64,000 nucleotides of DNA from a virus: the IMG/VR virus record IMGVR_UViG_3300027852_000003, positions 1-64,000 of that record. One strand, given 5' to 3'. The notes below the pieces were generated by a model, which saw nothing but the letters and a program-made list of their open reading frames with translations, had not been told where the DNA came from and did no database searches. Position 1 is the stretch's first letter; each line of letters begins with the position of its first letter. Positions 12,360-45,403 of the stretch are shown in pieces. The translations under genes were made by a program, and so were the position numbers.

Positions 12360-12374
12360 AATCTCTCCTGTCGG

Positions 12375-12899: not shown

Positions 12900-12912
12900 G
12901 GTTTCTCCTGGG

Positions 12913-13182
12913 TTACATCACCGACCCGAAAGTGTGACCAATGAAGTCACCGCCGTATAATTGGAAAGTGCCAAGAAATTGCATATAGTCAACATCTTTT
13001 ACAGGATGGCCAGTACCGTAAATCTTGATTTTATGCGGGATTGCTTCATGGTTAGTTTCAACAAGTGCCCACAAGCAAGGTTCACCATGCTGAACTTGTA
13101 CGCTTAGCAACACCGCCCCCTTTGGCAATAAGACTATTTGGTCATCTTTTACTTCGAGCGGATACTTAAAAATCTTTTGCAT
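12913..13182 (-). CDS. Small conserved phage protein (89 aa)
   Basis: The pattern KYPLEV...LLPKGAVLLSVQVQHGEPCLWALV...YGTGHP recalls a widespread phage family. The family was not verified. Confidence 0.7.
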   Translation of the reverse strand: MQKIFKYPLEVKDDQIVLLPKGAVLLSVQVQHGEPCLWALVETNHEAIPHKIKIYGTGHPVKDVDYMQFLGTFQLYGGDFIGHTFGSVM

Positions 13183-13894
13183 TTTCTGCCTCCTCCTTTT
13201 TAGATTCTCTCACCCTTCTACTCCAATTGCTTTCTTGATCTTCTGGTACTTCATCCTCCCAGCAACCCTTATTTAACCAGGTGGCCGGCTTCTTCCACTG
13301 AGGGATAAACTCATCAGGATCGGCTCTTGCCCTCCAGGTTAGCTGGTTTTCAATAGCAGCAAGAAGGATTTCCAGAGAAGGAAGTTTTTTTCTTTTCATC
13401 AAAGTTTTCCATCTTGCAATAGCTTCATCTATTTCAACACGCTTTGGGTATATTTCCCAGAATTTGTTAAAATCATCTTGAGAAAAACATATATCTTTTT
13501 TCTTATCATTCTTATTTTCTGCCTGTCTGTTGCCTATTTGAAAATCTAAAAGTCCCATAAAGCCTTTATTTAAGCGGTATACGGCAGCATTTTTGCTACC
13601 TGTTTTGCTACCTACTTTTGATAAGAAATTTAATTTTACTAAGTGGTTTATTACCCGATACAGTTTCCCGTGTTGAGAATCTCCCAACCCAAAAGATCTC
13701 GTTTCCGTTTGGGAAAGAAAAAATTCGCACTCATCTAATCCGGTTAATTTATTGTTCTTCCTGCTTGCTCTTGCTTGCGCAGCCATGAGAACTTTCCAAT
13801 ACAAGCCGTCTGCTTGTTGTAAAAACCGGAACGCTTCATTATACTCATCAGTTGTTATCTTGGAAAACCAGGAGAGCGGGTTAGCCTTTTGCAT
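13166..13894 (-). CDS. Replication initiation / replisome-organizer-like protein
   Basis: N-terminal winged-helix-like region plus the C-terminal FNKFWEIYPKR...IPQWKKPATWLNKGCWEDE signature, which is common in phage replication proteins. This is recognition from memory. Confidence 0.7.
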   Translation of the reverse strand: MQKANPLSWFSKITTDEYNEAFRFLQQADGLYWKVLMAAQARASRKNNKLTGLDECEFFLSQTETRSFGLGDSQHGKLYRVINHLVKLNFLSKVGSKTGSKNAAVYRLNKGFMGLLDFQIGNRQAENKNDKKKDICFSQDDFNKFWEIYPKRVEIDEAIARWKTLMKRKKLPSLEILLAAIENQLTWRARADPDEFIPQWKKPATWLNKGCWEDEVPEDQESNWSRRVRESKKEEAENAKDF

Positions 13895-14051
13895 TTTTAT
13901 AATCTTCGACTTCTTTTTTATCCAAAAAATTACCCTTCCCGATAGGATAAAGTTTAAGGACTTTTCTATCCGTTAGCCTATAAACTGTAGGAGGACTAAC
14001 CTCTAATATTTTGGCGGCTTGGTAGTGCGAAATTAACTCTTTCTTTTCCAT
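13881..14051 (-). CDS. Excisionase/MerR-type HTH DNA-binding protein (56 aa)
   Basis: LISHYQAAKILEVSPPTVYRLTDRKVLKLYPIG. ATG at 14051 follows AAAGGAA. Below the track's cutoff. Confidence 0.55.
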   Translation of the reverse strand: MEKKELISHYQAAKILEVSPPTVYRLTDRKVLKLYPIGKGNFLDKKEVEDYKNAKG

Positions 14052-14502: not shown

Positions 14503-15228
14503 TTAATCGTCAAAACTTATCTTTAACTGCTGTGTTTCCCGCTCTATACGCTCTGCCGCTATCTCGCAGTATTTTTCTGAAGTCTCACAAGCTAGCCATT
14601 TACGGTTTAATTTTTCACAGGCTACTCCGGTTGTGCCTGAACCAAAATACGGATCAAGAACTAAATCCTCTTCATTAGTTGACGACATTACAACCATCTC
14701 AGAAAGCTTTACGGGGAATGGTGCTGGATGATTTGCTCTTTTATCTCTACCTGGGACAACAGGTACGCGCCATACTTCACCAAATTTAACATATTTTTTT
14801 ATCGGTCGCCATTTATCCTTACAAATTATAAATATTCTTTCTGTAGATGGCGCAAAAAAAGAACCTGCGAAATTAAACATACCCACCCTATTCCATATTA
14901 TTTCTTGCCGTATTGGAAAAGGGATAAGTCGTTTTCGATCGTCTAAAACGCCGTTTAATATTCTTGGTTTGTGGTTATAAAAAATTGCTCCATCTTGTTT
15001 CAACAAATTATACATTAATTTAAAAACAGCATGTTGAGTATTTGTATATTCTTGGTCTGGGATGTCGTCTTGATATTCGTCATATGGTCTACCCAAATTA
15101 TAGGGCGGAGAAGTCCACACCAAATCCACAGGCTCAAGTTCTGGCATAATCTCAGTACAATCCCCATGGTAAAGTTTTCCTAATTTCGTTTCAAAGTATG
15201 GCTTCAATTCACTCCCCTTAATCATCAA
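14503..15228 (-). CDS. DNA methyltransferase, N4/N6 family (SPPY motif, beta-class order)
   Basis: DLVWTSPPYNLG catalytic motif lies N-terminal and LDPYFGSGTTGVA SAM motif C-terminal. Confidence 0.9.
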   Translation of the reverse strand: MMIKGSELKPYFETKLGKLYHGDCTEIMPELEPVDLVWTSPPYNLGRPYDEYQDDIPDQEYTNTQHAVFKLMYNLLKQDGAIFYNHKPRILNGVLDDRKRLIPFPIRQEIIWNRVGMFNFAGSFFAPSTERIFIICKDKWRPIKKYVKFGEVWRVPVVPGRDKRANHPAPFPVKLSEMVVMSSTNEEDLVLDPYFGSGTTGVACEKLNRKWLACETSEKYCEIAAERIERETQQLKISFDD

Positions 15229-18915: not shown

Positions 18916-19950
18916 TTAAATTAATGACGTGCCAGGTTCAATCCCTAACTTCTCTTTTTTCACCTCAATGGCTTCTTCAATACGTCCTCCGCTTTCAGGA
19001 TCAACAGCCATTATTTCCTCAATTTTTTCCTTGTTGTTCCTGATCCAGTTATTGAGATGTTTTTCACTCTTGATATCCGTTTTAATATGGGCAACAAAAT
19101 TATCGGCTATCATTTTTGCTCTACCTATTTCTTCCGAGAGTGCTGATTCAGATTTCGGGGATGCCTGTGCTGTCTTTGTTTGCGCTGCTCTGTCTTCATC
19201 TTCCCAAGCCGGACAGCCTTCTCTATCTTCGCATTCATTGTTGCAGAAACTTTTTAAAACCTGGTCGTTTTTTCGCTCAGGACAGAGGACAAAAGACTCG
19301 GTAGTTGCAGGTTTTTCTTTTTCCAAGATAAACCGTTTTTGTTTTTTGAGTTTTTCCTTTAACACTTCTTTTTTTGCATCGGTTTTTTGCTCGGTTTCAG
19401 CGTTCATAACTACAGGGTCGATACTTAATTCTCCGACAGAGGGAATTTCTTCTTGTGAATACAAGCCGCCCAAATCTTCTGGCAATGCTTCTCTTAACGC
19501 CTGGACTAATGCCACTTTTTTTAACATAGTTCTCGGTTTTTCAGCCCACATACGGTTAGGCGTTCCATCTCTTTTTACCCCTACATATTCTTCATAATCA
19601 ACTTCGCACTTGATGGGCACTTGATATCCTTTCATATATACTTTTGCCCATGCTATTTGCCCATCTTCCGAGACGCCGGTTTCATGCCCCTGATATTTTG
19701 GATTTCGGTAGGCTCGTTTCAAAAAAGTTTCTTTCCCTGTAACTATCGTTGCTTTTTCCGCCCCATATTTGATTAAGTAAACTTCCCTTAAAAACGGATT
19801 CAATTTCTGGTACTTGCAGAGAGCAAGGAACATCATTATTTCCTGTTCTGTGATATTACCCGCCCCGCTTACCAAATATTTTTTTACAATATTTGGGGAT
19901 AGTGTGATTTCTCCGTATCCTGTTTCATATTTTACAATTTGCTCATTCAT
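18916..19950 (-). CDS. recT: RecT-family single-strand annealing recombinase
   Basis: Contains LALCKYQKLNPFLREVYLIKYG, TGKETFLKRA, RMWAEKPRTMLKKVALVQALREA. It is adjacent to a YqaJ-type exonuclease. Confidence 0.85.
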   Translation of the reverse strand: MNEQIVKYETGYGEITLSPNIVKKYLVSGAGNITEQEIMMFLALCKYQKLNPFLREVYLIKYGAEKATIVTGKETFLKRAYRNPKYQGHETGVSEDGQIAWAKVYMKGYQVPIKCEVDYEEYVGVKRDGTPNRMWAEKPRTMLKKVALVQALREALPEDLGGLYSQEEIPSVGELSIDPVVMNAETEQKTDAKKEVLKEKLKKQKRFILEKEKPATTESFVLCPERKNDQVLKSFCNNECEDREGCPAWEDEDRAAQTKTAQASPKSESALSEEIGRAKMIADNFVAHIKTDIKSEKHLNNWIRNNKEKIEEIMAVDPESGGRIEEAIEVKKEKLGIEPGTSLI

Positions 19951-20872
19951 TTATTCCTCCTTTCAAAATATATGGCCTAAATGCCTTAAATGGCTTTCCT
20001 TTTTTTTCATATTGGCTTAAAGCAATTTCCGGGTGTTCAGAGCTAAGTTTTTTCTTGTCAAAAATTATCCTCCCGGCCTGCTCCTGATAGTACCCCCGGA
20101 AATTAAATCCTTCTATAACCCCCGCTCCTTCAGATTCCATCATGCCTGTAAGCTTTTCTTTCGCCGTTTTTTCAAGCTCTTCCCATTCCTGCCTAATCGC
20201 CTTAGCTTCGGTGAAATCTGTTATTGCCTCTTCCCACTCCGGGCTTGTTACCTGCACCAACTCCCCGCCAATGGCAGGCAAATCAATGGCCGATTCTTCT
20301 TCCGGGGGCGGCGTTCCGGCTTTCACCATTTCCCAAAATTTTGTGTCCTTTTCAATAATGAAATCAATTAATTCATCATCTCGCTCAACATCAAAATGAA
20401 TTAAATCCCATTGTTCGGCATTGAACACTCCAAAGGCTCCCCATTTGCAGCCAGTAACGGCAAGGTAATGCTGCAACTGGATTTGGTAATAATCCTGCAA
20501 TCCTTCCCTTTTGCATTTTCCAAAAACTTGGAGGCCTGGACATTTGATTTCGAGAATACCCGCCCCTTTTTCCAAATCCATAATTTTTCGATCAACATTT
20601 CCAAGAAAAAAGTCAAGTTGAGGATGTTTAAATAATTTTGTTTCTATAATCGTCTCCCTCCCTGTCTCCGCTTGATACATATTAGCCACAAGAGGCTCAA
20701 GCATCGCCCCTCTTTTCATTGCTGGGGTTTCTGTTTCTTCCACTACTAATCCCCGTTTTTCCAGATATAAATCATGAATATTTTTAAACGGGCTAACTCC
20801 CAAGATAACAGGGCTATCGCTCCCCCCGATACCCTTTCGCCGTTCCTGCAACTGCTCAAGTGTTAATGACAT
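19943..20872 (-). CDS. YqaJ/lambda-Exo-like recombination exonuclease
   Basis: Contains RRKGIGGSDSPVILGVSPFK, MKRGAMLEP, ILEIKCPG. ATG at 20872 follows AAGGAGGG. Confidence 0.85.
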   Translation of the reverse strand: MSLTLEQLQERRKGIGGSDSPVILGVSPFKNIHDLYLEKRGLVVEETETPAMKRGAMLEPLVANMYQAETGRETIIETKLFKHPQLDFFLGNVDRKIMDLEKGAGILEIKCPGLQVFGKCKREGLQDYYQIQLQHYLAVTGCKWGAFGVFNAEQWDLIHFDVERDDELIDFIIEKDTKFWEMVKAGTPPPEEESAIDLPAIGGELVQVTSPEWEEAITDFTEAKAIRQEWEELEKTAKEKLTGMMESEGAGVIEGFNFRGYYQEQAGRIIFDKKKLSSEHPEIALSQYEKKGKPFKAFRPYILKGGINE

Positions 20873-21083
20873 CTTTCTTTCCCTCCTTAAGTTTTCTTTC
20901 GCAAAATGCAATGGCATTGTCTATCGCCGTTTCTAAATCTTCGTGTTGTTGACTCCCCTTCTCCCAACGTAGAAAACTCTCTTCTAAGTAAGAGCCTACT
21001 TCCCAAAGGTTATATTTTATAATCGTTAGCGAGTCGCCGCACAATTCATTAAGATATAACATTTTCTCTTTAAGGCTTTTCAT
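20856..21083 (-). CDS. Hypothetical protein (75 aa)
   Basis: ORF track entry. Confidence 0.55.
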   Translation of the reverse strand: MKSLKEKMLYLNELCGDSLTIIKYNLWEVGSYLEESFLRWEKGSQQHEDLETAIDNAIAFCERKLKEGKKDVINT

Positions 21084-29231: not shown

Positions 29232-29504
29232 ATGAATGAACCAACTGAAAAACAAAAAAGGTTTTTGTCTCTTGAATCAATCCTTCTTGTTTTAAATTCT
29301 GCAAAAAGAACCGGGGCAGAAAAAGACATCCCAGAGGGAAGCAGAGTCGTCACAATATCAGATACGCTTTGCAAAGAAATGATAAATACAATCGAATCGT
29401 ATGTTGATGAGGGGTTTGAATATTTAACACATAACAAAAAAGGTACGGGACGCCTAATCCTTCAACCTAAAAAGGAAAAGCCATGGAAACGGAAGCATTC
29501 GTAA
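29232..29504 (+). CDS. Hypothetical protein (90 aa) upstream of and overlapping the Fic gene
   Basis: ORF track entry. Contains SYVDEG, an S-x3-E-G match of uncertain significance. Confidence 0.65.
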   Translation: MNEPTEKQKRFLSLESILLVLNSAKRTGAEKDIPEGSRVVTISDTLCKEMINTIESYVDEGFEYLTHNKKGTGRLILQPKKEKPWKRKHS

Positions 29505-29926
29505 GAGAAAGTAACAAGATCGAGGGGATTTTTAGAGATCCTACGGCAGCAGAGATTAAAGAACATGATCGTTTCGTTAATTTGCATACTGTAACCCTGA
29601 GCGATTTAAAGCAATTTGTAGCTATTTATCAACCGGGGGCTGTTCTCCGTGATAAGTTTGGGTTAAATGTTCGTGTCGGCAATCATATTCCCCCAGGAGG
29701 CAGCCCGAATATGCCTGTGTTTGTGACAGCTTTACTCGATACAGCAGAGCTGAAAACTCCGTTTAAGCTGCACAATGAGTATGAAACACTGCATCCATTT
29801 ACTGATGGAAACGGGCGAAGCGGAAGGGCTTTGTGGGCATGGCGGATGGTAAAAACAGTAGGTGATTACAGCCCGGAGTTTTTGCATTCATATTATTATC
29901 AATCTCTTGCGGCATGGAGAGAGTAA
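29483..29926 (+). CDS. fic: Fic-domain protein (AMPylase-type active site)
   Basis: HPFTDGNGRSGR matches HxFx(D/E)GNGRxxR. N-terminal ESNKIEGIF matches the (S/T)xxxE(G/N) inhibitory-helix motif. Confidence 0.85.
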   Translation: METEAFVRESNKIEGIFRDPTAAEIKEHDRFVNLHTVTLSDLKQFVAIYQPGAVLRDKFGLNVRVGNHIPPGGSPNMPVFVTALLDTAELKTPFKLHNEYETLHPFTDGNGRSGRALWAWRMVKTVGDYSPEFLHSYYYQSLAAWRE

Positions 29927-37599: not shown

Positions 37600-38544
37600 A
37601 TGGCTGTTATTAGAGCTAATATTTCCAATTTAATGCAAGCAGGGCTTGACCAGATTTTGTTCTCTCCCTGGAAAAAAGCGGATCCTTTCGCGGTCATAAA
37701 TCAGGTTTTCAATGTGTCTTCTTTTGGGCATCAGTATGAAAGATTTATGACTATCGAAGGTGTTCCTCTTTTGTCACAAAAAAATGAAGGGGCAAATTAT
37801 TCTGCTGCGGAACCAGGGGAAGGGTATTACACCGATCTTGAGAGCATTGCATACGGTGTATATACGACTATCACCCATGAAGCGCAGGCAGACGAGAGGT
37901 ATAGTGTTATTTCTCGTTTCCCTAAAGTAATGAGAGAAGCCGCAGAAGCCACTGTTCAGTTTTATGCGTCTTCAGTTTTTACAGGAGGTTTTACTTCGCT
38001 TCCCACATGGCAAAGCGGGAACCGATCTGCAACCGAATATCTTTTCAGCACTTCCCATGCAATGAAAAATGGGAGTACTCAGTCAAATAAACCTTCTACC
38101 GATGCAGATTTAACCGCTACAAGTCTTTGGGCTGCGGTAAATGCTTTTTATACTTTCAAGAATGATGCAGGGTTGCCTTTGGCTATTTCGCCCAAAATTC
38201 TTTTAACCCCGCATCAGTTGCAGCAAAAAGCCACCGAGCTTTTAGACTCCGATAAATACCCGGAAAATGCTGAAAATGCGATTAATGCCCTTAGAAAAAG
38301 AACTGAGATTCAGTCGGTAATCTGGCCATATTGGTTGGGCAATGTTGATGAGGATGCATGGTATTTGCTGGCGGATAAATCGAGTATGGGAAAAGAATAT
38401 CCTCTCCAGTTTCAGTGGAGAGAAAAACCAAGAACAAAAATGACAGTAGAAGATCTGTCCGATAATCTTCTTTATTTCATTTATGAAAGATTTGCCTGCG
38501 GATGGCCTGATTATGTTGGTGCTTACGGTAGCGCAGGAGCATAA
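37600..38544 (+). CDS. Major capsid protein (HK97-fold type, by position, size and general pattern)
   Basis: 314 aa with AAGGAGGTAAAATACA upstream. It follows the scaffold-like genes. Confidence 0.75.
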   Translation: MAVIRANISNLMQAGLDQILFSPWKKADPFAVINQVFNVSSFGHQYERFMTIEGVPLLSQKNEGANYSAAEPGEGYYTDLESIAYGVYTTITHEAQADERYSVISRFPKVMREAAEATVQFYASSVFTGGFTSLPTWQSGNRSATEYLFSTSHAMKNGSTQSNKPSTDADLTATSLWAAVNAFYTFKNDAGLPLAISPKILLTPHQLQQKATELLDSDKYPENAENAINALRKRTEIQSVIWPYWLGNVDEDAWYLLADKSSMGKEYPLQFQWREKPRTKMTVEDLSDNLLYFIYERFACGWPDYVGAYGSAGA

Positions 38545-38566: not shown

Positions 38567-39043
38567 ATGGCAAACTTAGATAATCCATGTGGATTTGAGC
38601 CTTATAACCACGAAGGGAACAGTTCTGCCCCAATTCACTGGTATAAACATTCAGCAAGTGATGCTGCGAAAATTACCAAAGGCGATGCAGTGAGAAAAGA
38701 CTTGGCAAATGCGGGATATATAAAAGCAGCTTCGGCAACAGTAGGCTCCCTTTTGGGAATTGCCGGGACTGCTGCGGCTACTGCTACAGCTGTAGATATT
38801 CCGGTGTACGATTCTCCTGATACGATTTTTACAGGACAATGTTCCGGGGATTCTGCGCAAGCTCTTGTTAACAAGCAGTGCGACATTGAGGGAACATCCG
38901 GGATAATGGAGGTTAATGAAAATGCTACCACGGAAAAAGTTATTACTGTAACCGGGGTACATCCTGCGGATGAGCTTGGAACTAATGGCAGGGTGTTGTT
39001 CAAAATTACAAAGCACCAAAACGCAGGGGATCAAACTGCGTAA
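38567..39043 (+). CDS. Capsid decoration/cement-like protein (DUF2190-like pattern)
   Basis: ITKGDAV...GSLLGIAG...VYDSPDTIFTGQ. The pattern is recalled from DUF2190 proteins and lies directly after the capsid gene. Confidence 0.55.
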   Translation: MANLDNPCGFEPYNHEGNSSAPIHWYKHSASDAAKITKGDAVRKDLANAGYIKAASATVGSLLGIAGTAAATATAVDIPVYDSPDTIFTGQCSGDSAQALVNKQCDIEGTSGIMEVNENATTEKVITVTGVHPADELGTNGRVLFKITKHQNAGDQTA

Positions 39044-39113: not shown

Positions 39114-39710
39114 ATGGCAGTAACAAGATGGAGTTCACAATTACAACCAACTGATGCTACTGCAAAATATGCAGAATTGCGGATTCCCTGGCAGGCTATT
39201 CTTCAGTCCTACAGCACTAAAGATGCTGCCGGAGCTGGATCGATGCTGGGAACTGGCAATGCAAAAAGTGTCGTGGCTGAGGCAAATTCTTCCGGGCTAG
39301 GCGGGCTTGCTCCAGCCACCGGCGATGAATTAGATTTTTTGGTAAAACTTCCCAATGATTTCGATTCTACGGAAGCATCTTACCTGGATGTTTATTACCA
39401 AACTATAGCAAGTGCTACAAAAGGAAACGTGATAAATTGGCAATGCACCTACAACGCAGTCAACCCGAATGCTTCTACCGCTGCGATTGGAGATGCTACT
39501 AGCACATCTGGGATTACTAATCCTTCCGAAAGAACGCTGGCTACCGGGATAAGCGAAACTTTTTTATTCAAGGACACGGTAACTATTGCGGCATCTACTC
39601 TTACGGCAGGTTATGGGATTCATACCCAGTTAACTTGTGGCGGGGATCATGCCGAGGGTGAATTGATTATTCAGGAAGTGGTTTTGAGATACGTAAAGTT
39701 ATGGATGTAG
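39114..39710 (+). CDS. Hypothetical virion-module protein (198 aa)
   Basis: ORF track entry with AAAGGAGGTAATTAGTT upstream. Confidence 0.7.
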   Translation: MAVTRWSSQLQPTDATAKYAELRIPWQAILQSYSTKDAAGAGSMLGTGNAKSVVAEANSSGLGGLAPATGDELDFLVKLPNDFDSTEASYLDVYYQTIASATKGNVINWQCTYNAVNPNASTAAIGDATSTSGITNPSERTLATGISETFLFKDTVTIAASTLTAGYGIHTQLTCGGDHAEGELIIQEVVLRYVKLWM

Positions 39711-39771: not shown

Positions 39772-39828
39772 AAAAGGGGATTTTCGATGTATAATAAAAA
39801 TATGTTGGGGATCCCCTTTTGTTTTTTT
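39772..39828 (+). terminator. Rho-independent terminator closing the capsid operon
   Basis: AAAAGGGGAT (39772-39781) pairs with ATCCCCTTTT (39811-39820); alternatively, the local palindrome GGGGATCCCC forms. The run TTTTGTTTTTTT spans 39817-39828, its first four T overlapping the 3' stem arm. Confidence 0.6.
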
Positions 39829-39892
39829 ATGTAATAATAAACTGAGAGGCGGTTGTTTAGACATCTACGATAACCTTCTTTTTGAGGATAAA

Positions 39893-40000
39893 ATGATAAA
39901 TTTGGTAGTTATTTTTTTATTTAGTGTTGCAGTTATTGGAATATTGACAGGAATAATATTTTCGGCACATCTATTTTATAGGATTATTAAGGGAACTTAA
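39893..40000 (+). CDS. Possible 35-aa hydrophobic peptide
   Basis: GAGGATAAA lies upstream of the ATG. Sequence: MINLVVIFLFSVAVIGILTGIIFSAHLFYRIIKGT. Confidence 0.3.
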   Translation: MINLVVIFLFSVAVIGILTGIIFSAHLFYRIIKGT

Positions 40001-40077
40001 CATTCTCACTTGAGTGGCGAGAGGAACGAACATCCGAATCGAAGCAGTTGTTAGTAATTTTTTACAGAAAGGATACT

Positions 40078-41040
40078 GTGAAAATAGTTATTTTTGATAG
40101 ATACAAGACTTTTGATTTTCATCACGGGCATATGGTTTCTCATCTTGGGAAAAAGCATGAAGTTCTTTACGTTGATAAACCAATCCCTCAAGATCAAATA
40201 AGAATTTTGATGCGAGGGAATGATCTGGCATGGTTTGAGTTTTGTGATGATATGTTCCGGGAAGCAATGCGGCATCCCAAGGAGTCAAAGGTAGTTTGTA
40301 GGCTTCATTCAATGGAATTATTTACTCCTGTTCCCTTGAACACTTACTGGTTGAATTGCGACAGGCTTTTACTTGTGAGCAAAGAAATAGAAATACTGAT
40401 GAAAAGAGTAAAAGAAAACTCAAAAATTCCGCTTTCTTCTATGGATATTTTGCCGAATGGTGTTGATTTCAATTTATTTAAGTGGAAGGGAAAACAGTAT
40501 GGCAATAAAATAGCCTGGATTGGCTGGATTAATCATAAAAAAAATCCACAAATGATTTTATATCTGGCAGACGCTCTGAAGAAAAAAGGCATGGATTATA
40601 CTTTCCATGCCATTGGTCGCTTTCAGGAACCCAGGTATGAGTTGTATTTATCTGATATGATAAAAAAGATGAACCTATCTGATACCGTGTTTTTTGAAGG
40701 CTGGGTAGATAACAAAAATCTTCCCGATTGGCTTGAAGATAAGTCCTATAATCTTTCTACTTCTCTTTTTGAATCTTTCGGCAATTCTATAATAGAAAGT
40801 ATGGGAAGCGGTTTAATCCCGTTAATTCACGATTTTTATGGATCAGGTGAAAGATTTGGCAAGGATTGTATTTTTACCGGGATAGATAGTTTTATTAATT
40901 TGCTGGAACATTTTGAGAAATTAAGCAATGAAGAAAAACAGCAGTTAAGCAAGAAAAAGAGAAAAATGGTTGGGCAATATGAAATCGGAAAACAGTTAAA
41001 AAAGTTGGACTTTATAATTGAATCGGTGATGGAAGAATGA
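40078..41040 (+). CDS. Glycosyltransferase, GT-B fold (GT4/GT1-like)
   Basis: ESFGNSIIESMGSGLIP is an E-x7-E motif. The start is uncertain (GTG 40078 or TTG 40048). Confidence 0.75.
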   Translation: MKIVIFDRYKTFDFHHGHMVSHLGKKHEVLYVDKPIPQDQIRILMRGNDLAWFEFCDDMFREAMRHPKESKVVCRLHSMELFTPVPLNTYWLNCDRLLLVSKEIEILMKRVKENSKIPLSSMDILPNGVDFNLFKWKGKQYGNKIAWIGWINHKKNPQMILYLADALKKKGMDYTFHAIGRFQEPRYELYLSDMIKKMNLSDTVFFEGWVDNKNLPDWLEDKSYNLSTSLFESFGNSIIESMGSGLIPLIHDFYGSGERFGKDCIFTGIDSFINLLEHFEKLSNEEKQQLSKKKRKMVGQYEIGKQLKKLDFIIESVMEE

Positions 41041-42848
41041 AAAATTTTTATATTATATCCCCTACTTATAATGCCTCTAAATATATAAATGCCTGTATTT
41101 TATCTGTCAAAGATCAGGACACTAAAGGGATAATGGCAAAGCATATTGTTGTTGATGATGCTTCGGCCGACAGAACATGGGAAAAGATACAGAGCCACGA
41201 TGGGAGTATAGAGGCATACAGGCTGGAAAATAATTCCGGTTCTCCTCTTTCTTCGTTCCTCTGTGGAATATCAAAAATAGAAAACTTGGGAGACGATGAT
41301 ATTATTGCCTGGCTTGATGGTGATGATTGGCTTTTAGGGACAAAGGCCTTACAAGAAATTGTAACCGCCTATAGAAAATCATCTGCGGATATGGTTTATA
41401 GCCAGCATATTACTTATCACGGGCAAAAGGATGGGATACCAAACGTAACAATGGGGATCTCCACACCACTAAGTGATCCGACTCTGGCTCGTTATGCAAA
41501 AGTCGCTTATTCTCACTTTAGAACATTCAGGGCTGGAATGTTAAAAAATGTGCCTCCAGATACTTTGTTTGACCCATCTACCGGCAAACATTGGCAGACT
41601 TGCGGGGATTCGGCTTTGTTTATCCCTATGCTGGAAACAGCCAAAAAGGTAAGTTTCGTAAATCGCCCCTTATATGTTTATAACCGTGAGACAGATGGAA
41701 GCGAAGATAAAAAACCTGAATATTTTTCCAAAATGAATACTGTAAGAGTAAGAGATAGGGATACTTGCTTGAATAATAAAATGGAGTGGCACAACAAAAC
41801 ATATCGGCTTCCACCTACAAGACGATTCAAGGCAGACGTTGGGCGTATATGCGACCTAAGTTGCGAATTTTGTTACTATTCTCATATGGAAAAAAAGGAT
41901 AGGTGGTTTCTAACCTGGGAAGAGATGGAAAAAGTTTTGAGAAATGGAGTAGCCAGGGGAAATCTTTTTTGCGACTTTAGCGGGGGAGAACCAACAATTA
42001 TCCCTGATTTTGCCAAATGGATTTTTGGAGCAAGAAAGTTGGGATTATACCCTTGCGTTATTACTCATGGACAAAAAATAGAACCTAAATTGGAAGAATA
42101 TTGGGACTCAGGGCTTGAAGATATTCTTTTTTCTATTCATGGCTCTGAAAATATTCATAATAAGGTAACAAACACAAAAAATGGTTTCGCAAAAGTAAAC
42201 AAAGCTATAGAAAAATGCAATAGCAATAATTTTAAATTTCGCACCAATACTGTTTTAACCAGTAATTTTGAAGATTTAATAGGATTGGCTAATTATTTTG
42301 CTGAGGTTAAGCCACTAATCAGCAATTTTATTAACTTTAATCCCTATGATGAATGGTCTTGTATGGACAAGCAGGATTTTCAGGGAAAAAATTCCCAAAT
42401 TGCTCCTTTTCTAAAAAAAGCAATCGATATTTTAACTGCTGCCGGGGTTATGGTCAACATTCGATATTTTCCTATGTGTCTGCTGAAAGGATATGAAAAA
42501 CATATTTGCAATATTCCTCAAGTGATGCACGATGGCTATGAATGGGATTACAGCATTTTGCCTAAAGAGTTTTCGCCATATCTTGAGTATTCCAAGTGGC
42601 TTTCCGACAGAATAAATACGTTTGCTCCAAAATGTTTGGAATGTTCAATCCGAACAATATGCGGCGGGCTAAATAGCGGATATTACAAAAATATAGGGGA
42701 CTTAGAGTTAGCCCCTTATTCGGATAATGAGTTAACCGACCCACTTTATTTCAGGGTTAATGTTCCCCCCAAACAATTAAATACCTATGTAGGGCATAAT
42801 TTTTGGTGGTGCAAGGAGAGATATGCAGGGTTACGAAACAAAACTTAA
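41037..42848 (+). CDS. Fusion protein: N-terminal GT2-type glycosyltransferase plus C-terminal radical-SAM/SPASM-like domain
   Basis: GT-A signatures SPTYNASKYI, VVDDASAD and LDGDDW. Radical-SAM motif CDLSCEFC (CxxxCxxC), SGGEPT, and C-terminal CLECSIRTICGG. Confidence 0.85.
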   Translation: MKNFYIISPTYNASKYINACILSVKDQDTKGIMAKHIVVDDASADRTWEKIQSHDGSIEAYRLENNSGSPLSSFLCGISKIENLGDDDIIAWLDGDDWLLGTKALQEIVTAYRKSSADMVYSQHITYHGQKDGIPNVTMGISTPLSDPTLARYAKVAYSHFRTFRAGMLKNVPPDTLFDPSTGKHWQTCGDSALFIPMLETAKKVSFVNRPLYVYNRETDGSEDKKPEYFSKMNTVRVRDRDTCLNNKMEWHNKTYRLPPTRRFKADVGRICDLSCEFCYYSHMEKKDRWFLTWEEMEKVLRNGVARGNLFCDFSGGEPTIIPDFAKWIFGARKLGLYPCVITHGQKIEPKLEEYWDSGLEDILFSIHGSENIHNKVTNTKNGFAKVNKAIEKCNSNNFKFRTNTVLTSNFEDLIGLANYFAEVKPLISNFINFNPYDEWSCMDKQDFQGKNSQIAPFLKKAIDILTAAGVMVNIRYFPMCLLKGYEKHICNIPQVMHDGYEWDYSILPKEFSPYLEYSKWLSDRINTFAPKCLECSIRTICGGLNSGYYKNIGDLELAPYSDNELTDPLYFRVNVPPKQLNTYVGHNFWWCKERYAGLRNKT

Positions 42849-43524
42849 GCTTCCAGCTAACTTGTCTTTGGAAAATATGAGTGATTTGCCTAAAATTTTT
42901 ATAGGAACTCCATGGAGCGTTCCTTATATCCCAGCAGCTTTCACTCTTTCTTTGCGGAATATGCTGGTTCCCTTACCCCATGTTTTCGATTTTGTTGCTG
43001 CAAGACACGTTGTCGATGCCAGAAACGCAATAGTCAAGTTAGCTATCGATAACAATTTTGATTTTGTTATGATGCTTGATGCTGATCAATCCTTCCCTTC
43101 TAATTTTTTCATAGAATTATGGAAAATCGTTCAGCAAGACCCGGAGAATAATATTGCTACAGGATGGGCAATAATTAAGACTGGGAAATATGCGGGCAAA
43201 ACAAGCGTTTGCAAATGGAAAAATGGAGATTTTTATGCAGAAGACCCCAAAAAAGTTAGCATACGTAAGAAACCTTTCCAGACCGATGGTTTCGGGACGT
43301 GTGGTTTCCTATGCAGTACCAAAATTTTTAAGCGACTCACATTTCCCTGGTTCACCGACATCAACATTATTTGTGAGGAAAACAGATTGGGACAATTTTA
43401 TGTTGCGACAGAGTTTGCAATGGGACAAGACCTTTGTTTCAGCATTAAAGCTAAAGAGGTTGGAGCAAGATTGATTTGCCATCCCAAAATGAAAATGCCG
43501 CATCAGGTGTTGCAAAATATATAA
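42823..43524 (+). CDS. GT-A fold glycosyltransferase-like protein
   Basis: FDFVMMLDADQSFP is a DxD motif. AAGGAGAGAT lies upstream of the ATG. Confidence 0.65.
   Translation: MQGYETKLKLPANLSLENMSDLPKIFIGTPWSVPYIPAAFTLSLRNMLVPLPHVFDFVAARHVVDARNAIVKLAIDNNFDFVMMLDADQSFPSNFFIELWKIVQQDPENNIATGWAIIKTGKYAGKTSVCKWKNGDFYAEDPKKVSIRKKPFQTDGFGTCGFLCSTKIFKRLTFPWFTDINIICEENRLGQFYVATEFAMGQDLCFSIKAKEVGARLICHPKMKMPHQVLQNI
43503..43520. repeat. 18-bp direct repeat TCAGGTGTTGCAAAATAT, copy 1 (copy 2 at 43880..43897)
   Basis: Exact match. Copy 1 is the 3' end of the glycosyltransferase gene. Confidence 0.9.
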
Positions 43525-43569
43525 CAAGTTATTATGCGGGTTTACAATTTTAAAAGAGGCATAAAAGGC

Positions 43570-43719
43570 ATGAAAACAAAAATTGACAAAAATCACTATC
43601 GGAACTTATGGCTTCAGTGTTTAGAAGTCATAAACAACATAGATAAAATAATCCAGGATTATAAAAATCCAAATAGACCGACAGAAGAAGAATGCAAGAA
43701 GCCTATTCATAAAATATAA
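43570..43719 (+). CDS. Possible small protein (49 aa) inside the repeat-flanked insert
   Basis: ATG at 43570 lies within track ORF 43534..43719. The SD is weak. Confidence 0.3.
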   Translation: MKTKIDKNHYRNLWLQCLEVINNIDKIIQDYKNPNRPTEEECKKPIHKI

Positions 43720-43851
43720 ACGTAAACCTGATGATTAAAATGATAAATTTTATAACCCAGACACGCTATCAAGCCTCGTTATTTACAACGTGGCTTGACG
43801 GGCTTTGTCTTTGGTAAGATTTTACCGTCACAGACTTAGGCATAGGCTTTT

Positions 43852-43879
43852 CCCCGTCTCTTACAAGACGGGGTTTACC
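43852..43879 (+). terminator. Hairpin CCCCGTCT-CTTACA-AGACGGGG followed by TTTACC
   Basis: 8-bp GC-rich stem at 43852-43859/43866-43873. Confidence 0.5.
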
Positions 43880-43968
43880 TCAGGTGTTGCAAAATATTTA
43901 ACGCCAAAATCAGCGGCATAATCTTTTCGTGCCAGTTGAATTTGGTATTAGGATGAGGAGTTTTGTAG

Positions 43969-44166
43969 GTGTACTACAATGATGTAACTGCACGATTTCT
44001 TATCGCTAATGGATGTGCTTCTATTGGGGATTATCAGGTTTTGTCGAGCTATTATGAAAACCGAGGATTTGTTTCGATTCCTCGGAAGTGGCAGAAACCA
44101 TATATAAAACAAAATGATGTGGGATCGAAACCTCAACTATTAATTGATTACCTGGAGGGAAAATAA
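43969..44166 (+). CDS. Hypothetical protein (65 aa), GTG start
   Basis: GAGGAG lies 8 nt upstream of the GTG at 43969. Confidence 0.45.
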   Translation: MYYNDVTARFLIANGCASIGDYQVLSSYYENRGFVSIPRKWQKPYIKQNDVGSKPQLLIDYLEGK

Positions 44167-44186
44167 CTTTTTTAAAAGGATAAACT

Positions 44187-44705
44187 TTGCCAAGTTCAAG
44201 ACCATTTTTTTTAGAATATTTTTGCGATGTTTTAGTAGCGAATAAACCAAAATCTATTCTGGATATTGGTTGCGGACATGGGAAATTCGGTTTCTTGGCC
44301 AGAGAATACACGGATGTGTGGAACGGAGATTATTGGAAAAGGAAGGTACAGATTGACGCTGTAGAAATTTTTCCCAAATATATAGGAAAATTACAAAAAG
44401 AAATTTATGACAATATTTACATAGATGATGCCCTAAAGGTTCTTCCAAAATTGGATAAATACGAAATGATTGTTTGTGCCGATGTTTTGGAGCATTTTTC
44501 TACTGACAGGGGCATTGTTTTGTTGGATTCCATCAAAGTAAAGTCTGATTTTGGAATGGTAATAACGCCTGTAAAAGTATCAAAACAGAAAGAAGAATAT
44601 GGGAACAAATACGAAACTCATTGTTCTCAGTGGAGCAGAGAAAGGCTGGAAAATTGGGGAATAGTGTATAGAAGTAATAATGCCTATCTTTTGGAGGTAA
44701 GGTGA
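44187..44705 (+). CDS. Class I SAM-dependent methyltransferase
   Basis: ILDIGCGHGKFG motif I and VCADVLEH motif. Apparent TTG start. Confidence 0.75.
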   Translation: MPSSRPFFLEYFCDVLVANKPKSILDIGCGHGKFGFLAREYTDVWNGDYWKRKVQIDAVEIFPKYIGKLQKEIYDNIYIDDALKVLPKLDKYEMIVCADVLEHFSTDRGIVLLDSIKVKSDFGMVITPVKVSKQKEEYGNKYETHCSQWSRERLENWGIVYRSNNAYLLEVR

Positions 44706-44899
44706 TCGAGGCTGATTATATAGTTGAAAAATTAGATAGCATGAAAGTTCCTAATTATCGCAAACGTAGGACTTGTTGGCGATGTGGACAAATTAATTGG
44801 TGCGAAAAAATGCGCAAGGCAGGGAGTAAGTGGTTCTGTGTTGATCCGCCTTGTTACAATCCTCCACAGAAAGGGAAACAAGGAGGAGATAGTGCTTAA
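44702..44899 (+). CDS. Cys-rich small protein (65 aa, 6 Cys), GTG start
   Basis: GGAGGTAAG lies upstream of the GTG. Contains CWRCGQINWC...FCVDPPC. Confidence 0.55.
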   Translation: MIEADYIVEKLDSMKVPNYRKRRTCWRCGQINWCEKMRKAGSKWFCVDPPCYNPPQKGKQGGDSA

Positions 44900-44920
44900 A
44901 ATTCAAAAAAGGAAGACAAG

Positions 44921-45403
44921 ATGGGTGGTCATTTTAAAGATGCAGAATTGTATTTAACTGGAAGTATACCAAAGATAAAGCTACAAGGAACAGAAGACGA
45001 CGCTAAAAATTTGTCTATCAGAGAAAATGCCGGGAGTATAGATATTTATAATGAAACGTCTGCGACGGTAGAAGCCTCTTTTACAACAACCGAACTATTG
45101 TTCCTTTCACGGTTTGTTACTGCTCCCAACACAGAAATATTGGCGGCCACAAAAACACTCGTGGTTACCGATTCGCTTATTCAATTTTTAGATCCGGGGG
45201 GCGCAGGCAGGCAAATAAACCTTCCCGCAGAAGCAAGTTCAGACCGCCTGATGTTTTTTTTGGTTAATGCCGCTGATGCTGATGAGGTTTTAACAGTTAA
45301 GGACGATGGTGGAACAACTATTCTTTTGATAGACCAGAATGAGATTGGTTTTACTATTTGTGATGGTACTTCCTGGAAGGGTGGAAGGATCATAAAGGGA
45401 TAA
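44921..45403 (+). CDS. Hypothetical virion protein (160 aa)
   Basis: ORF track entry, first gene after the cassette. Confidence 0.7.
   Translation: MGGHFKDAELYLTGSIPKIKLQGTEDDAKNLSIRENAGSIDIYNETSATVEASFTTTELLFLSRFVTAPNTEILAATKTLVVTDSLIQFLDPGGAGRQINLPAEASSDRLMFFLVNAADADEVLTVKDDGGTTILLIDQNEIGFTICDGTSWKGGRIIKG

What the first reader, a model, noticed from the sequence alone, without database searches (positions are those of the whole stretch)
40048..44899. Glycosyltransferase, radical-SAM, methyltransferase and Cys-rich peptide cassette between capsid and neck genes
A roughly 4.9-kb block with no structural-looking genes sits directly after the terminator that closes the capsid genes (39772-39828) and before the neck and tail genes (44921 onward). 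It encodes a GT-B glycosyltransferase (E-x7-E motif ESFGNSIIESMGSGLIP) and a 603-aa GT2 plus radical-SAM/SPASM fusion. It also encodes a second GT-A enzyme (FDFVMMLDAD), a class I SAM methyltransferase (ILDIGCGHGKFG) and a 65-aa protein with six cysteines. Four genes appear to use GTG or TTG starts (40078 or 40048, 43969, 44187, 44702), unlike the ATG-dominated remainder of the window. This suggests foreign origin or deliberately low expression. I see three candidate roles. (i) Glycosylation or methylation of virion proteins. (ii) Remodelling of host surface glycans. (iii) RiPP-like maturation of a phage-encoded peptide, combining rSAM-SPASM chemistry with a GT2 as in sactipeptide and glycocin logic; the substrate could be the Cys-rich ORF 44702..44899 or the 35-aa ORF 39893..40000. 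The sequence alone cannot discriminate among these. I do not know a described phage system with this gene combination at this position.
Basis: partly seen in the sequence, partly recalled or inferred. Interest (0 to 1): 0.8.

Follow-up and report, generated by a model that had tools for sequence, protein, structure and literature searches.

The report
Radical-SAM sugar cassette beside phage capsid genes
An uncultured phage carries a conserved set of sugar-adding, sugar-tailoring (radical SAM) and methylating enzymes between its capsid and neck genes, and these most likely decorate a surface protein of the virus particle with a modified glycan, which would be a new variant of the rarely documented phage virion glycosylation.

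Summary
The block is real and the enzyme calls mostly hold: a GT4/GT-B enzyme, a GT2 + radical-SAM fusion, a weakly supported GT-A-like enzyme and a class I methyltransferase.

Three details are wrong:
- There is no SPASM domain. Only four extra conserved Cys are present, which suggests one auxiliary cluster.
- The Cys-rich ORF has 5 Cys, not 6.
- The functional unit starts upstream, at the 198-aa gene 39114-39710.

Comparative data settle the anatomy. The trio p198 + GT4 + GT2-rSAM is an indel. It is present in about 10 divergent phage lineages, always just after the major capsid gene. It is absent from the closest relatives (capsid protein 56-64% identical), which keep only a GT-A-like/methyltransferase gene and the small zinc-ribbon gene.

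The Cys-rich ORF is therefore a backbone zinc ribbon, not a RiPP substrate. The 35-aa ORF is missing from the nearest relative.

The rSAM domain belongs to an uncharacterised family of about 1,350 clusters. Its fusions and neighbours in cellular genomes are overwhelmingly glycosyltransferases, and one member lies in a flagellin-glycosylation-like island. An unrelated phage carries the same fusion between its portal and head genes.

Best reading: late, cytoplasmic glycosylation of a virion surface protein with a methylated, rSAM-tailored glycan (confidence about 0.55). Nothing was tested experimentally.

The parts
37600..38544 (+). Major capsid protein (context; possible glycan acceptor)
   Evidence: Pfam Mu-like_gpT 2e-11 and Phage_capsid_4 5e-7; PHROG major head protein.
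38567..39043 (+). 158-aa protein directly after the MCP. It is conserved in position across the family and is a presumed head accessory/decoration protein (inferred); possible acceptor.
   Evidence: 87% identical in L001. A protein of 140-180 aa sits at this position in L003, L004, L181, L248, L184 and L187. No family hit.
39114..39710 (+). p198: a non-enzymatic all-beta (jelly-roll-like) protein that always travels with the GT4 gene. It is the candidate glycan acceptor or carrier on the virion surface.
   Evidence: Followed by the GT4 gene in every lineage where the downstream sequence is held; never seen without it. Lowest dN/dS in the region, 0.029. AF2 pLDDT 70, all-beta. BFVD matches: an unnamed 206-aa viral protein (TM 0.65, E 9e-8), then distal domains of tail fibres/spikes.
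39773..39828 (+). Intrinsic-terminator-like hairpin plus T-run between p198 and the enzyme genes (likely attenuator)
   Evidence: 20-pair stem followed by TGTTTTTTT; sequence read directly.
39893..40000 (+). 35-aa hydrophobic ORF; lineage-specific, doubtful gene, not a conserved partner
   Evidence: The stretch 39826-40079 has no counterpart in sister phage L001. Hydrophobic segment, KD19 2.94. No family hit.
40078..41040 (+). GT4-family (GT-B) glycosyltransferase, start GTG 40078
   Evidence: PF00534 1.1e-13. EX7E motif conserved in 7 orthologues. All orthologues start MKI..D at the position of GTG 40078. 34-39% identical across lineages.
41037..42848 (+). GT2 (GT-A) glycosyltransferase fused to a radical-SAM domain with one predicted auxiliary Fe-S site
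   Evidence: PF00535 3e-17 and PF04055 8e-20. Invariant D40 D41, D94xD96D97, C272/C276/C279, GGEP316-319, C481, C533, C536, C542. AF2 pLDDT 93, pTM 0.91. Fold matches to TarS/TarP and to generic rSAM enzymes.
42823..43524 (+). GT-A-like protein (phrog_1574), probable third glycosyltransferase
   Evidence: Pfam GT2 families only 0.012-0.032. phrog_1574 3.4e-12. Conserved D86xD88, GQD and MPH motifs. Homologues lie after the MCP in two unrelated viruses. Fused to a methyltransferase in L184/L187.
43503..43902 (+). Segment bounded by a 23-nt direct repeat (43503-43525 / 43880-43902); looks like an insertion footprint that duplicates the 3' end of the GT-A-like gene
   Evidence: 22/23 identity, 18 nt exact, unique in the window, none expected by chance.
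43534..43719 (+). 61-aa ORF (called as 49 aa in L001), unverified gene
   Evidence: Only found in the sister phage, 100% identical there. No family hit.
43720..43968 (.). 249-nt non-coding stretch with strong predicted RNA structure, function unknown
   Evidence: MFE -78.8 kcal/mol, z = -5.4 on the + strand; z = -4.5 on the - strand. No Rfam match.
43969..44166 (+). 65-aa ORF with GTG start behind a GGAG-type ribosome-binding site, unverified gene
   Evidence: Sequence read directly. Only in the sister phage. No family hit.
44187..44705 (+). Class I SAM-dependent methyltransferase (TTG start)
   Evidence: Methyltransf_23 2.7e-8; motif ILDIGCGHG. Other lineages carry non-orthologous methyltransferases in the cassette.
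44702..44899 (+). Small 4-Cys zinc-ribbon protein. It is a backbone gene of the head-neck junction and not part of the sugar cassette.
   Evidence: C25, C28, C46 and C51 are conserved in the 60-71-aa orthologues of L003, L004, L005, L184 and L187. Present in relatives that lack p198, GT4 and GT2-rSAM.

Best explanation
The region is a late-expressed, phage-encoded glycosylation module that belongs to the head gene block.

**Proposed sequence of events (inferred)**
1. After the capsid genes, read-through of a terminator gives low-level expression of soluble enzymes.
2. A GT4 enzyme, a GT2 domain and a GT-A-like enzyme add sugars one by one from nucleotide sugars. They act directly on a soluble acceptor in the cytoplasm. 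No lipid carrier, flippase or oligosaccharyltransferase is involved.
3. The radical-SAM domain fused to the GT2 abstracts a hydrogen from a sugar carbon, either of the donor nucleotide sugar or of the sugar just transferred. Its single auxiliary Fe-S cluster binds the substrate or takes the electron. The result is a tailored sugar (oxidised, epimerised, deoxygenated or similar).
4. The SAM methyltransferase caps a hydroxyl.

**Likely acceptor (inferred):** a surface protein of the virion. The best candidate is the 198-aa beta-sandwich protein that always accompanies the enzymes. The capsid protein and the 158-aa head accessory protein are alternatives.

**Shown here**
- The enzyme families and their conserved catalytic motifs.
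- The module's gain/loss as a unit.
- Its head-module position in two unrelated phage backbones.
- The glycosyltransferase association of the rSAM family.

**Inferred, not shown:** the acceptor, the sugars and the rSAM reaction.
For: **Enzyme identity**
- Searches support the family assignments and motifs.

**Purifying selection**
- dN/dS against the sister phage is 0.03-0.10 for p198, GT4, GT2-rSAM and GT-A. Portal and MCP give 0.05-0.08.

**Conserved synteny**
- The order MCP, ~150 aa, p198, [methyltransferase], GT4, GT2-rSAM, GT-A-like, zinc ribbon recurs in the window, L001, L003, L004 and L248. Shorter contigs hold parts of it: L005 and L250 (from p198 on), L179/L180 and L181 (MCP to GT4), L182 (to the start of the next gene) and L221 (to GT4).
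- These lineages have MCPs only ~28-30% identical and portals ~21% identical, while the fusion is 44-46% identical.

**Indel**
- Relatives L184, L185, L187, L188, L189 and L190 (MCP 56-64% identical) lack p198, GT4 and GT2-rSAM. They keep the zinc ribbon, and L184 and L185 also keep a p158-like gene.
- Two of them (L184, L187) have a GT-A-like/methyltransferase fusion there instead.

**Independent case**
- In L249 the GT2-rSAM fusion lies between the portal (phrog_156) and a different major head protein (phrog_334).
- GT-A-like homologues follow the MCP in ctvy9321 and sit in the structural block of a Methanobacteriales virus.

**The rSAM family is tied to glycan synthesis**
- Among 140 genes flanking 37 cellular homologues, 34 are GT2, 14 are GT1/GT4 and 4 are GT9; flippases also occur.
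- Among 60 multidomain members, GT domains are the commonest fusion partner.
- P0016 sits after flagellin-FliW-CsrA-epimerase and before GT9 and TPR-GT2 genes, which is a protein-glycosylation-type island.

**Absence of membrane pathway parts**
- No transmembrane segment is predicted in any enzyme, and no initiating transferase or flippase is present.

**Precedent**
- Phage-encoded GTs modify capsid and tail-tube proteins in mycobacteriophages, as cited in PMC10877033, PMC11256854 and PMC12619734.
- GT plus methyltransferase is read the same way in Rhodococcus phages (PMC13313380).
Against: - There is no direct evidence of any glycan on any protein. The phage is uncultured and known only from metagenomic contigs.
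- The acceptor is not identified.
  - p198 has no recognisable glycosylation sequon, only a conserved Thr-rich loop.
  - Its model is of moderate quality (pLDDT 70) and resembles carbohydrate-binding modules as much as fibre knobs. It could therefore bind sugars rather than carry them.
  - L249 has the fusion without p198 or GT4 on the 6.9 kb held.
- In cellular genomes the rSAM family mostly sits in polysaccharide-type loci, not clearly protein-glycosylation loci. Flagellin was within 10 kb in only 1 of 79 genome loci.
- Soluble GT4 enzymes can also act on lipid-linked host intermediates.
- The rSAM chemistry is a guess. Structural neighbours are generic: GDGT-MAS, SuiB, BlsE, SkfB, viperin.
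Confidence: 0.55

Rival explanations
1. Host glycan remodelling. The soluble enzymes act during late infection on host lipid-linked or cell-surface glycans (LPS, capsule, S-layer or flagellin glycans). This could mask receptors so that progeny are not lost on debris or on already infected cells.
For: - Cellular homologues of the rSAM enzyme lie among GT2/GT4/GT9 and flippase genes typical of polysaccharide loci.
- GT4 gives weak hits to EPS and Pgl-pathway enzymes that use lipid-linked acceptors.
- The GT2 domain resembles TarS/TarP, which decorate wall teichoic acid.
- PHROG gives weak GtrB-like hits.
Against: - There is no GtrA/GtrC-type partner, flippase, initiating transferase or membrane segment.
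- The cassette lies inside the head gene block in two unrelated phage backbones. Serotype-converting glycosyltransferases of temperate phages usually lie near integration or lysogeny modules (established knowledge).
- It is strictly co-inherited with a non-enzymatic beta-sandwich protein under very strong purifying selection. This model does not explain that link.
Confidence: 0.2
2. RiPP-like peptide maturation. The rSAM and GT2 domains modify a phage-encoded small peptide, either the Cys-rich ORF 44702-44899 or the 35-aa ORF 39893-40000.
For: - Sequence and fold matches to rSAM peptide maturases (SkfB, SuiB, PqqE), limited to the common rSAM core.
- Small ORFs are present in the block.
Against: - There is no SPASM HMM hit, and only 4 extra conserved Cys.
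- No PqqD/RRE domain is present. The N-terminal partner is a GT2 domain.
- No transporter or protease is encoded nearby.
- The Cys-rich ORF is a CxxC...CxnC zinc ribbon that also occurs in relatives lacking the rSAM enzyme.
- The 35-aa ORF lies in a stretch absent from the sister phage.
- The rSAM family's neighbours and fusion partners are glycosyltransferases, not precursor peptides.
Confidence: 0.03
3. DNA hypermodification. The glycosyltransferases, rSAM domain and methyltransferase decorate a modified base in phage DNA to evade restriction.
For: - Phage GTs are classically DNA-modifying (reviewed in PMC12619734).
- The rSAM half is ~30% identical to an rSAM protein of Campylobacter Firehammervirus phages, where it lies among nucleotide-metabolism genes.
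- There is generic similarity to MoaA and viperins, which act on nucleotides.
Against: - Among 20 larger ORFs of the early/left arm and of the region upstream of the portal gene scanned with Pfam, none is a thymidylate-synthase-like hydroxymethylase, a DNA polymerase or another base-modification gene. Only an N6/N4 methylase, RecT and YqaJ were found.
- The cassette sits in the late head block, next to a structural-looking protein, in every lineage.
Confidence: 0.05
4. Auxiliary metabolism of a soluble product. The enzymes make a modified nucleotide sugar or small glycoside (for example an inhibitor or signalling molecule) and are unrelated to the virion.
For: - Viperin-like and MoaA-like similarity of the rSAM core.
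- All enzymes are soluble.
Against: - Three separate transferases plus a methyltransferase argue for building an oligosaccharide on an acceptor.
- The head-module position and the link to p198 are unexplained by this model.
Confidence: 0.07

Closest known systems
Virion glycosylation of actinobacteriophages (Che8-type; Freeman et al. 2023, known here through PMC10877033, PMC11256854, PMC12619734, PMC13313380)
   Same: - Phage-encoded soluble glycosyltransferases, often with a methyltransferase.
- They are thought or shown to put glycans on capsid and tail-tube subunits in the cytoplasm.
   Different: - In the Che8-type phage Maravista the GT genes lie near the right end of the genome (PMC11256854), not inside the head block.
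- No radical-SAM enzyme and no dedicated co-inherited beta-sandwich protein are mentioned in the papers read here.
- The phage lineage is different (SU10-type portal/adaptor, GC 40%).
- Here nothing is shown biochemically.
Chlorovirus PBCV-1 capsid glycan machinery (A064R: two glycosyltransferase domains plus a methyltransferase domain; from my own knowledge, not checked with the tools)
   Same: Virus-encoded, cytoplasmic, stepwise synthesis of a methylated glycan on the major capsid protein by fused GT/methyltransferase enzymes. This parallels the GT-A-like/methyltransferase fusion seen in L184 and L187.
   Different: - It is a eukaryotic giant virus.
- It has no radical-SAM step.
- The enzymes share no detectable sequence relationship tested here.
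Bacterial flagellin O-glycosylation islands
   Same: - Soluble GTs modify a surface protein before export.
- One cellular homologue (P0016, an rSAM-GT2 fusion) sits directly after flagellin-FliW-CsrA and a sugar epimerase, next to GT9 and TPR-GT2 genes.
   Different: - This is a single example. 78 of 79 other cellular loci show no flagellin within 10 kb.
- No role for an rSAM enzyme in flagellin glycosylation was found in the literature search.
Sugar-tailoring radical-SAM enzymes with no or one auxiliary cluster (BtrN, DesII, AprD4, BlsE; the chemistry is from established knowledge)
   Same: - rSAM core plus, here, four further conserved Cys that could hold one auxiliary cluster.
- The genomic company is sugar-handling enzymes.
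- BlsE is among the best sequence and fold matches.
   Different: - Matches are limited to the common core (E about 1e-6; TM normalised to the query about 0.3).
- No curated NCBIfam model is reached.
- Fusion to a GT2 domain is not known to me for those enzymes (own knowledge; not checked).
rSAM-SPASM RiPP maturases (sactipeptide/glycocin logic)
   Same: Shared rSAM core fold and a CxxCx5C motif near the C-terminus.
   Different: - No 7-Cys SPASM signature and no SPASM HMM hit.
- No RRE domain.
- No conserved precursor peptide, transporter or protease.

Membership tests
GT4 / GT-B glycosyltransferases (Pfam Glycos_transf_1) | HMM match above the curated cut-off | tested here: met
   51.5 bits against a cut-off of 26.4, E 1.1e-13
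GT4 / GT-B glycosyltransferases (Pfam Glycos_transf_1) | E-x7-E motif in the C-terminal Rossmann domain | tested here: met
   ESFGNSIIE; both Glu are conserved in all 7 orthologues aligned
GT2 / GT-A glycosyltransferases | HMM match above cut-off and a DxD metal/nucleotide-sugar motif (603-aa protein, N-terminal domain) | tested here: met
   PF00535 63.5 bits against 23.3. D94-G-D96-D97 and D40-D41 are invariant in 10 homologues. Fold matches TarS/TarP.
GT2 / GT-A glycosyltransferases | The same features for the 233-aa protein 42823-43524 | tested here: inconclusive
   Pfam 14.6-16.1 bits, below cut-off. The DxD (D86, D88), GQD and MPH motifs are conserved in 5 homologues. phrog_1574 has no assigned function. 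No structure was predicted.
Radical SAM superfamily | CX3CX2C cluster motif, GGE SAM-binding motif and HMM match | tested here: met
   C272/C276/C279 and G316-G317-E318 are invariant or nearly so in 81 sequences. PF04055 72 bits against 29.5.
SPASM subfamily of radical SAM enzymes | C-terminal 7-Cys signature (two auxiliary clusters) / SPASM HMM | tested here: not met
   No SPASM hit at E <= 0.1. NCBIfam SPASM-family hits cover only residues ~268-424 and lie far below cut-off. Only C481, C533, C536 and C542 are conserved.
RiPP biosynthetic cluster (sactipeptide/glycocin type) | Conserved adjacent precursor peptide co-occurring with the maturase | tested here: not met
   The zinc-ribbon ORF is present in relatives without the rSAM enzyme. 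The 35-aa ORF region is absent from L001.
RiPP biosynthetic cluster (sactipeptide/glycocin type) | Peptide-recognition (RRE/PqqD) domain, transporter or leader protease | tested here: not met
   No such Pfam or NCBIfam hit in any cassette protein
Phage virion glycosylation systems | Phage-encoded glycosyltransferases genetically linked to virion genes | tested here: met
   Head-module position in about 10 lineages and in an unrelated backbone
Phage virion glycosylation systems | Glycan covalently attached to a virion protein | not testable with these tools
   Needs mass spectrometry of virions or of co-expressed proteins
Serotype-converting Gtr/O-antigen modification modules | Membrane-bound GtrB with GtrA flippase and GtrC transferase | tested here: not met
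   No transmembrane segment in the enzymes (maximum KD19 1.55). Only weak GtrB-like PHROG hits to the GT2 core. No GtrA or GtrC is present.
DNA glycosylation systems (T4-like) | Base hydroxymethylase or another hypermodification enzyme supplying an acceptor | tested here: not met
   None among 20 larger ORFs outside the structural gene block scanned with Pfam. Smaller ORFs were not scanned.
Class I SAM-dependent methyltransferases | Motif I GxGxG and HMM match | tested here: met
   ILDIGCGHG; Methyltransf_23 34.2 bits against 27
Prokaryotic viperins (pVip) | Match to the curated equivalog model | tested here: not met
   NCBIfam 46 bits against a cut-off of 180. The PADLOC pVip match is 56 bits and covers the rSAM core only.

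The most novel reading that the evidence does not exclude
The GT-fused radical-SAM domain is the founding phage example of a large, uncharacterised enzyme family. The family has about 1,350 clusters at 50% identity, mostly in anaerobic bacteria, DPANN archaea and some phages. Its members would carry out radical tailoring of sugars within protein- or cell-surface glycans. In these phages the family would produce a radical-modified, methylated glycan coat on a dedicated capsid surface protein (p198), possibly to shield the virion or to mediate adsorption.
Probability: 0.4. Interest if true: 0.75.

Novelty: new variant of a known kind. Interest (0 to 1): 0.62.

Why it matters
**For phage biology**
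- Phage virion glycosylation has so far been demonstrated essentially in actinobacteriophages.
- This cassette would extend it to an unrelated, uncultured phage group. The module is mobile and has a clear structure: a candidate acceptor gene plus its enzymes.

**For enzymology**
- A radical-SAM step has, as far as I found, not been described for protein or virion glycans.
- The comparative data give a testable function for about 1,350 orphan rSAM clusters that are fused to, or sit next to, glycosyltransferases.
- The five-gene set (p198, GT4, GT2-rSAM, GT-A-like, methyltransferase) is compact enough to be expressed and assayed directly.

Tried and rejected
**Searches that found nothing or were uninformative**
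- DNA similarity of the block to GenBank phages: no match.
- IMG/VR scan with the single fusion protein: nothing.
- Metagenome scan: only 8 loci, none with new context.
- Plasmid search: no informative homologue.
- Literature searches for rSAM in flagellin glycosylation or rSAM-GT fusions: nothing relevant. Freeman et al. 2023 itself is not held.

**Leads that did not hold up**
- A flagellin link as a general rule was rejected: 1 of 79 genome loci.
- Campylobacter phage rSAM context: nucleotide-metabolism neighbours, not informative for this cassette.
- The PADLOC viperin hit is a generic match to the rSAM core.

**Attempts to identify p198 and p158**
- PDB sequence searches for p198 and p158: nothing significant.
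- PDB fold search for p198: only weak CBM/Eph-like jelly-roll matches.

**Other**
- Rfam gives no family for the structured 43720-43968 stretch.

Full report
**1. What is in the sequence**

A strong terminator-like hairpin (39773-39819, then TGTTTTTTT) follows the 198-aa gene 39114-39710.

Profile searches give these assignments:
- 40048/40078-41040 is a GT4/GT-B enzyme (PF00534 1.1e-13).
- 41037-42848 is a GT2 domain (residues 6-170, 3e-17) fused to a radical-SAM domain (residues 268-415, 8e-20).
- 44187-44705 is a class I SAM methyltransferase (Methyltransf_23 2.7e-8).
- 42823-43524 reaches GT2-type models only at E 0.012-0.032, but matches phrog_1574 at 3e-12.

The flanks are a head block and two SU10-type adaptor homologues. 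The head block holds TerL, an SU10-like portal, a presumed scaffold gene (no family hit), and an MCP of the Mu gpT/Phage_capsid_4 type.

There is no DNA match to any GenBank phage. The MCP is at most 36% identical to that of any isolated phage. The window covers almost the whole 67.5-kb source contig.

**2. Corrections to the observation**

- *SPASM.* No SPASM model is hit. Alignments of 10, 22 and 81 homologues show the CX3CX2C triad (C272, C276, C279) plus only four further conserved cysteines (C481, C533, C536, C542). This is enough for one auxiliary cluster, not the 7-Cys SPASM signature.
- *Cys count.* The 'Cys-rich' ORF has five cysteines.
- *GT4 start.* The true start is GTG 40078. All seven orthologues begin MKI..D at that position.
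- *Zinc-ribbon start.* GTG 44702 is supported by the conserved N-terminus DY..EKLD..VP in orthologues.
- *Selection.* The cassette genes are under purifying selection against the sister phage: dN/dS 0.03-0.10, the same range as portal and MCP.

**3. Comparative anatomy**

The fusion protein has full-length homologues at 43-47% identity (one at 33%) on phage-like contigs.

In L003, L004 and L248 the order is MCP, ~150 aa, ~200 aa (p198 homologue), [methyltransferase(s)], GT4, GT2-rSAM, GT-A-like, ~60-aa protein, ~125-aa protein. L005 and L250 show the same order from the p198 homologue onward. L179/L180, L181, L182 and L221 show the start of the same order before the contig ends.

Across these lineages the MCP is only ~28-30% identical and the portal ~21% identical. 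By contrast:

| Protein | Identity across lineages |
|---|---|
| GT2-rSAM | 44-46% |
| GT4 | 34-39% |
| GT-A-like | 35-41% |
| p198 | 30-33% |

(All.)

p198 has no family annotation. All eight members recovered from the 5.8-billion-protein collection lie in this context.

A census of 65 IMG/VR loci with related MCPs gave the decisive result.
- The closest outgroup (L184, L185, L187-L190; MCP 56-64%, portal ~40% identical) has enough downstream sequence, yet lacks p198, GT4 and GT2-rSAM.
- These phages still carry the small Cys protein 1.9-2.7 kb after the MCP, and L184 and L185 also carry the ~158-180-aa protein after the MCP.
- Between those two genes, L184 and L187 have a single 432-aa gene. 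Its C-terminus is a class I methyltransferase (1e-11 to 1e-15). Its N-terminus aligns to the GT-A-like family (hhalign E 9e-5, probability 59%). L185 has a GT-A-like gene there.

Three conclusions follow:
- p198 + GT4 + GT2-rSAM is an add-on unit that is gained or lost as a whole.
- GT-A-like + methyltransferase + zinc ribbon is the older local arrangement.
- The Cys-rich ORF (CxxCG...W.C.x4-5.C, four conserved Cys) is a backbone zinc-ribbon protein.

The 35-aa hydrophobic ORF lies in a 250-bp stretch with no counterpart in sister phage L001.

Independently, in L249 a 33%-identical GT2-rSAM fusion sits between a portal (phrog_156) and a different major head protein (phrog_334). GT-A-like homologues follow the MCP in phage ctvy9321 and sit in the structural block of a Methanobacteriales virus.

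**4. The radical-SAM family**

An exhaustive profile search finds 1,348 clusters (50% identity) at E <= 1e-30.

One genome per species yielded 79 loci. They come from many mostly anaerobic bacterial phyla and from DPANN archaea.

Among the two genes on each side of 37 of these loci (140 genes):

| Neighbour type | Count |
|---|---|
| GT2 | 34 |
| GT1/GT4 | 14 |
| Other rSAM enzymes | 13 (7 B12-binding) |
| GT9 | 4 |
| Wzx-type flippases | 3 |

Among 60 multidomain members, GT2-type domains are the commonest fusion partner (14, plus further GT2-like hits). TPR repeats, inteins, GT1-like domains and methyltransferases follow. One phage-group homologue (P0007) has a TylF-like O-methyltransferase fused as well.

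One cellular homologue lies directly after flagellin-FliW-CsrA and a sugar epimerase, and before GT9 and TPR-GT2 genes. Flagellin is not a general neighbour, though.

No curated model is reached. The best hits are MoaA, PqqE and viperin-like, and they cover the core only.

The AlphaFold model is confident (pLDDT 93, pTM 0.91). It matches only generic rSAM enzymes (GDGT-MAS, SuiB, BlsE, SkfB, viperin) and the GT-A enzymes TarS/TarP. The family's chemistry is therefore unknown. Its genomic company says it works on sugars.

**5. Mechanism proposed**

*Shown:* three transferase-type enzymes, an rSAM domain and a methyltransferase, all with intact catalytic motifs. None has a predicted membrane segment. 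There is no initiating transferase, flippase or oligosaccharyltransferase. They lie in the late head block behind a terminator.

*Inferred:* direct, stepwise cytoplasmic glycosylation of a soluble acceptor. The rSAM domain tailors the sugar handled by its fused GT2, and O-methylation acts as a cap. The acceptor is most likely a virion surface protein.

p198 is the best candidate acceptor for these reasons:
- It is the only non-enzyme that travels with the enzymes.
- It is the most constrained gene locally (dN/dS 0.029).
- It is predicted all-beta. Its closest viral structural matches are an unnamed 206-aa protein (TM 0.65) and distal domains of fibres, spikes and collagen-like proteins.
- It has a conserved Thr-rich loop.

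The MCP and p158 remain possible acceptors, especially because relatives without p198 still carry a GT-A-like/methyltransferase gene.

**6. Rivals**

- *Host glycan remodelling* is not excluded, because soluble GT4 enzymes can use lipid-linked acceptors and the cellular homologues sit in polysaccharide loci. It does not explain the head-module position or the p198 link.
- *DNA hypermodification* lacks any acceptor-making enzyme among the 20 larger ORFs outside the structural gene block that were scanned.
- *RiPP maturation* fails every specific test (see section 2 and the third conclusion in section 3).

**7. The right-hand sub-block**

Nucleotide identity to the sister phage is 80-88% up to about 43300. 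It is then 100% to the end of that contig, at 44996. All contigs of the sister strain break at or within about 1.5 kb of the start of this shared stretch.

A 23-nt direct repeat (43503-43525 / 43880-43902) duplicates the 3' end of the GT-A-like gene. It brackets the 61-aa ORF and part of a 249-nt non-coding stretch with strong predicted structure (z = -5.4).

In the other clade the GT-A-like gene abuts the zinc-ribbon gene directly. The ~1.2 kb holding the two small ORFs, the structured stretch and the methyltransferase is therefore a lineage-specific, recently exchanged insert.

**8. Novelty and verdict**

Virion glycosylation by phage-encoded GTs is known in actinobacteriophages (cited in PMC10877033, PMC11256854, PMC12619734, PMC13313380). 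Capsid glycan synthesis by fused GT/methyltransferase enzymes is known in chloroviruses (my own knowledge).

What is new here:
- a radical-SAM step fused to a GT;
- a dedicated co-inherited candidate acceptor protein;
- the head-module position;
- the phage lineage.

I rate it a new variant of a known kind, with interest 0.62. The anatomy is well supported. The acceptor, the glycan and the rSAM reaction remain inference.

Noticed in passing
window 43720-43968: A 249-nt non-coding stretch inside the cassette folds far better than shuffled controls (z -5.4 on the + strand, -4.5 on the - strand). It has no Rfam match. It could be a small RNA, a regulatory leader or the remnant of a mobile element.
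   Followed up: partly
window 43503-43525 and 43880-43902: A 23-nt direct repeat (22/23 identical; 18 nt exact and unique in the window) duplicates the last codons and stop of the GT-A-like gene 377 nt downstream. It looks like an insertion footprint.
   Followed up: partly
window ~43300-44996 versus L001 ~12260-13957: This stretch is 100% identical in nucleotides to the sister phage, whereas the rest of the alignment is 67-90% identical per 200-nt window. All contigs of the sister strain break at or within about 1.5 kb of the start of this shared stretch. This points to a recent recombinational exchange of the methyltransferase/zinc-ribbon block.
   Followed up: partly
window 7690-7800 (- strand): Rfam tRNA model hit of 111 nt (37.4 bits, above the gathering score) where ARAGORN finds nothing. 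It may be an intron-containing or otherwise unusual tRNA.
   Followed up: no
window 29483-29926 (+): A 147-aa Fic/DOC-family protein (Pfam 2.4e-7) lies about 1.2 kb upstream of the terminase gene.
   Followed up: no
window 14503-15228, 18916-19950, 19943-20917 (- strand): The early arm encodes an N6/N4 DNA methylase, RecT and a YqaJ-type exonuclease. No DNA polymerase was seen among the larger ORFs scanned.
   Followed up: no
L184 10025-10717: In a related phage, a LAGLIDADG homing endonuclease gene is inserted between the MCP gene and the p158-like gene.
   Followed up: no
L003 4055-4330, L004 5086-5346, L181 2079-2351: A Cpn10 (GroES-like) co-chaperonin gene lies directly after the portal gene in the second clade of cassette-bearing phages.
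   Followed up: no
L180 3660-3911: In the lineage whose p198 is 67% identical to the window's, the GT4 gene is followed by a DUF3850 (ASCH-like) gene instead of the GT2-rSAM fusion. The contig ends there, so presence of the fusion is unknown.
   Followed up: no
proteins of alignment A10 (rSAM family representatives): Five of 60 multidomain members of the rSAM family carry intein splicing domains. Several others are tandem rSAM duplications.
   Followed up: no
window 39889-39903 and 43736-43750: The exact 15-nt repeat TAAAATGATAAATTT occurs at the start of the 35-aa ORF and again in the structured intergenic stretch.
   Followed up: no
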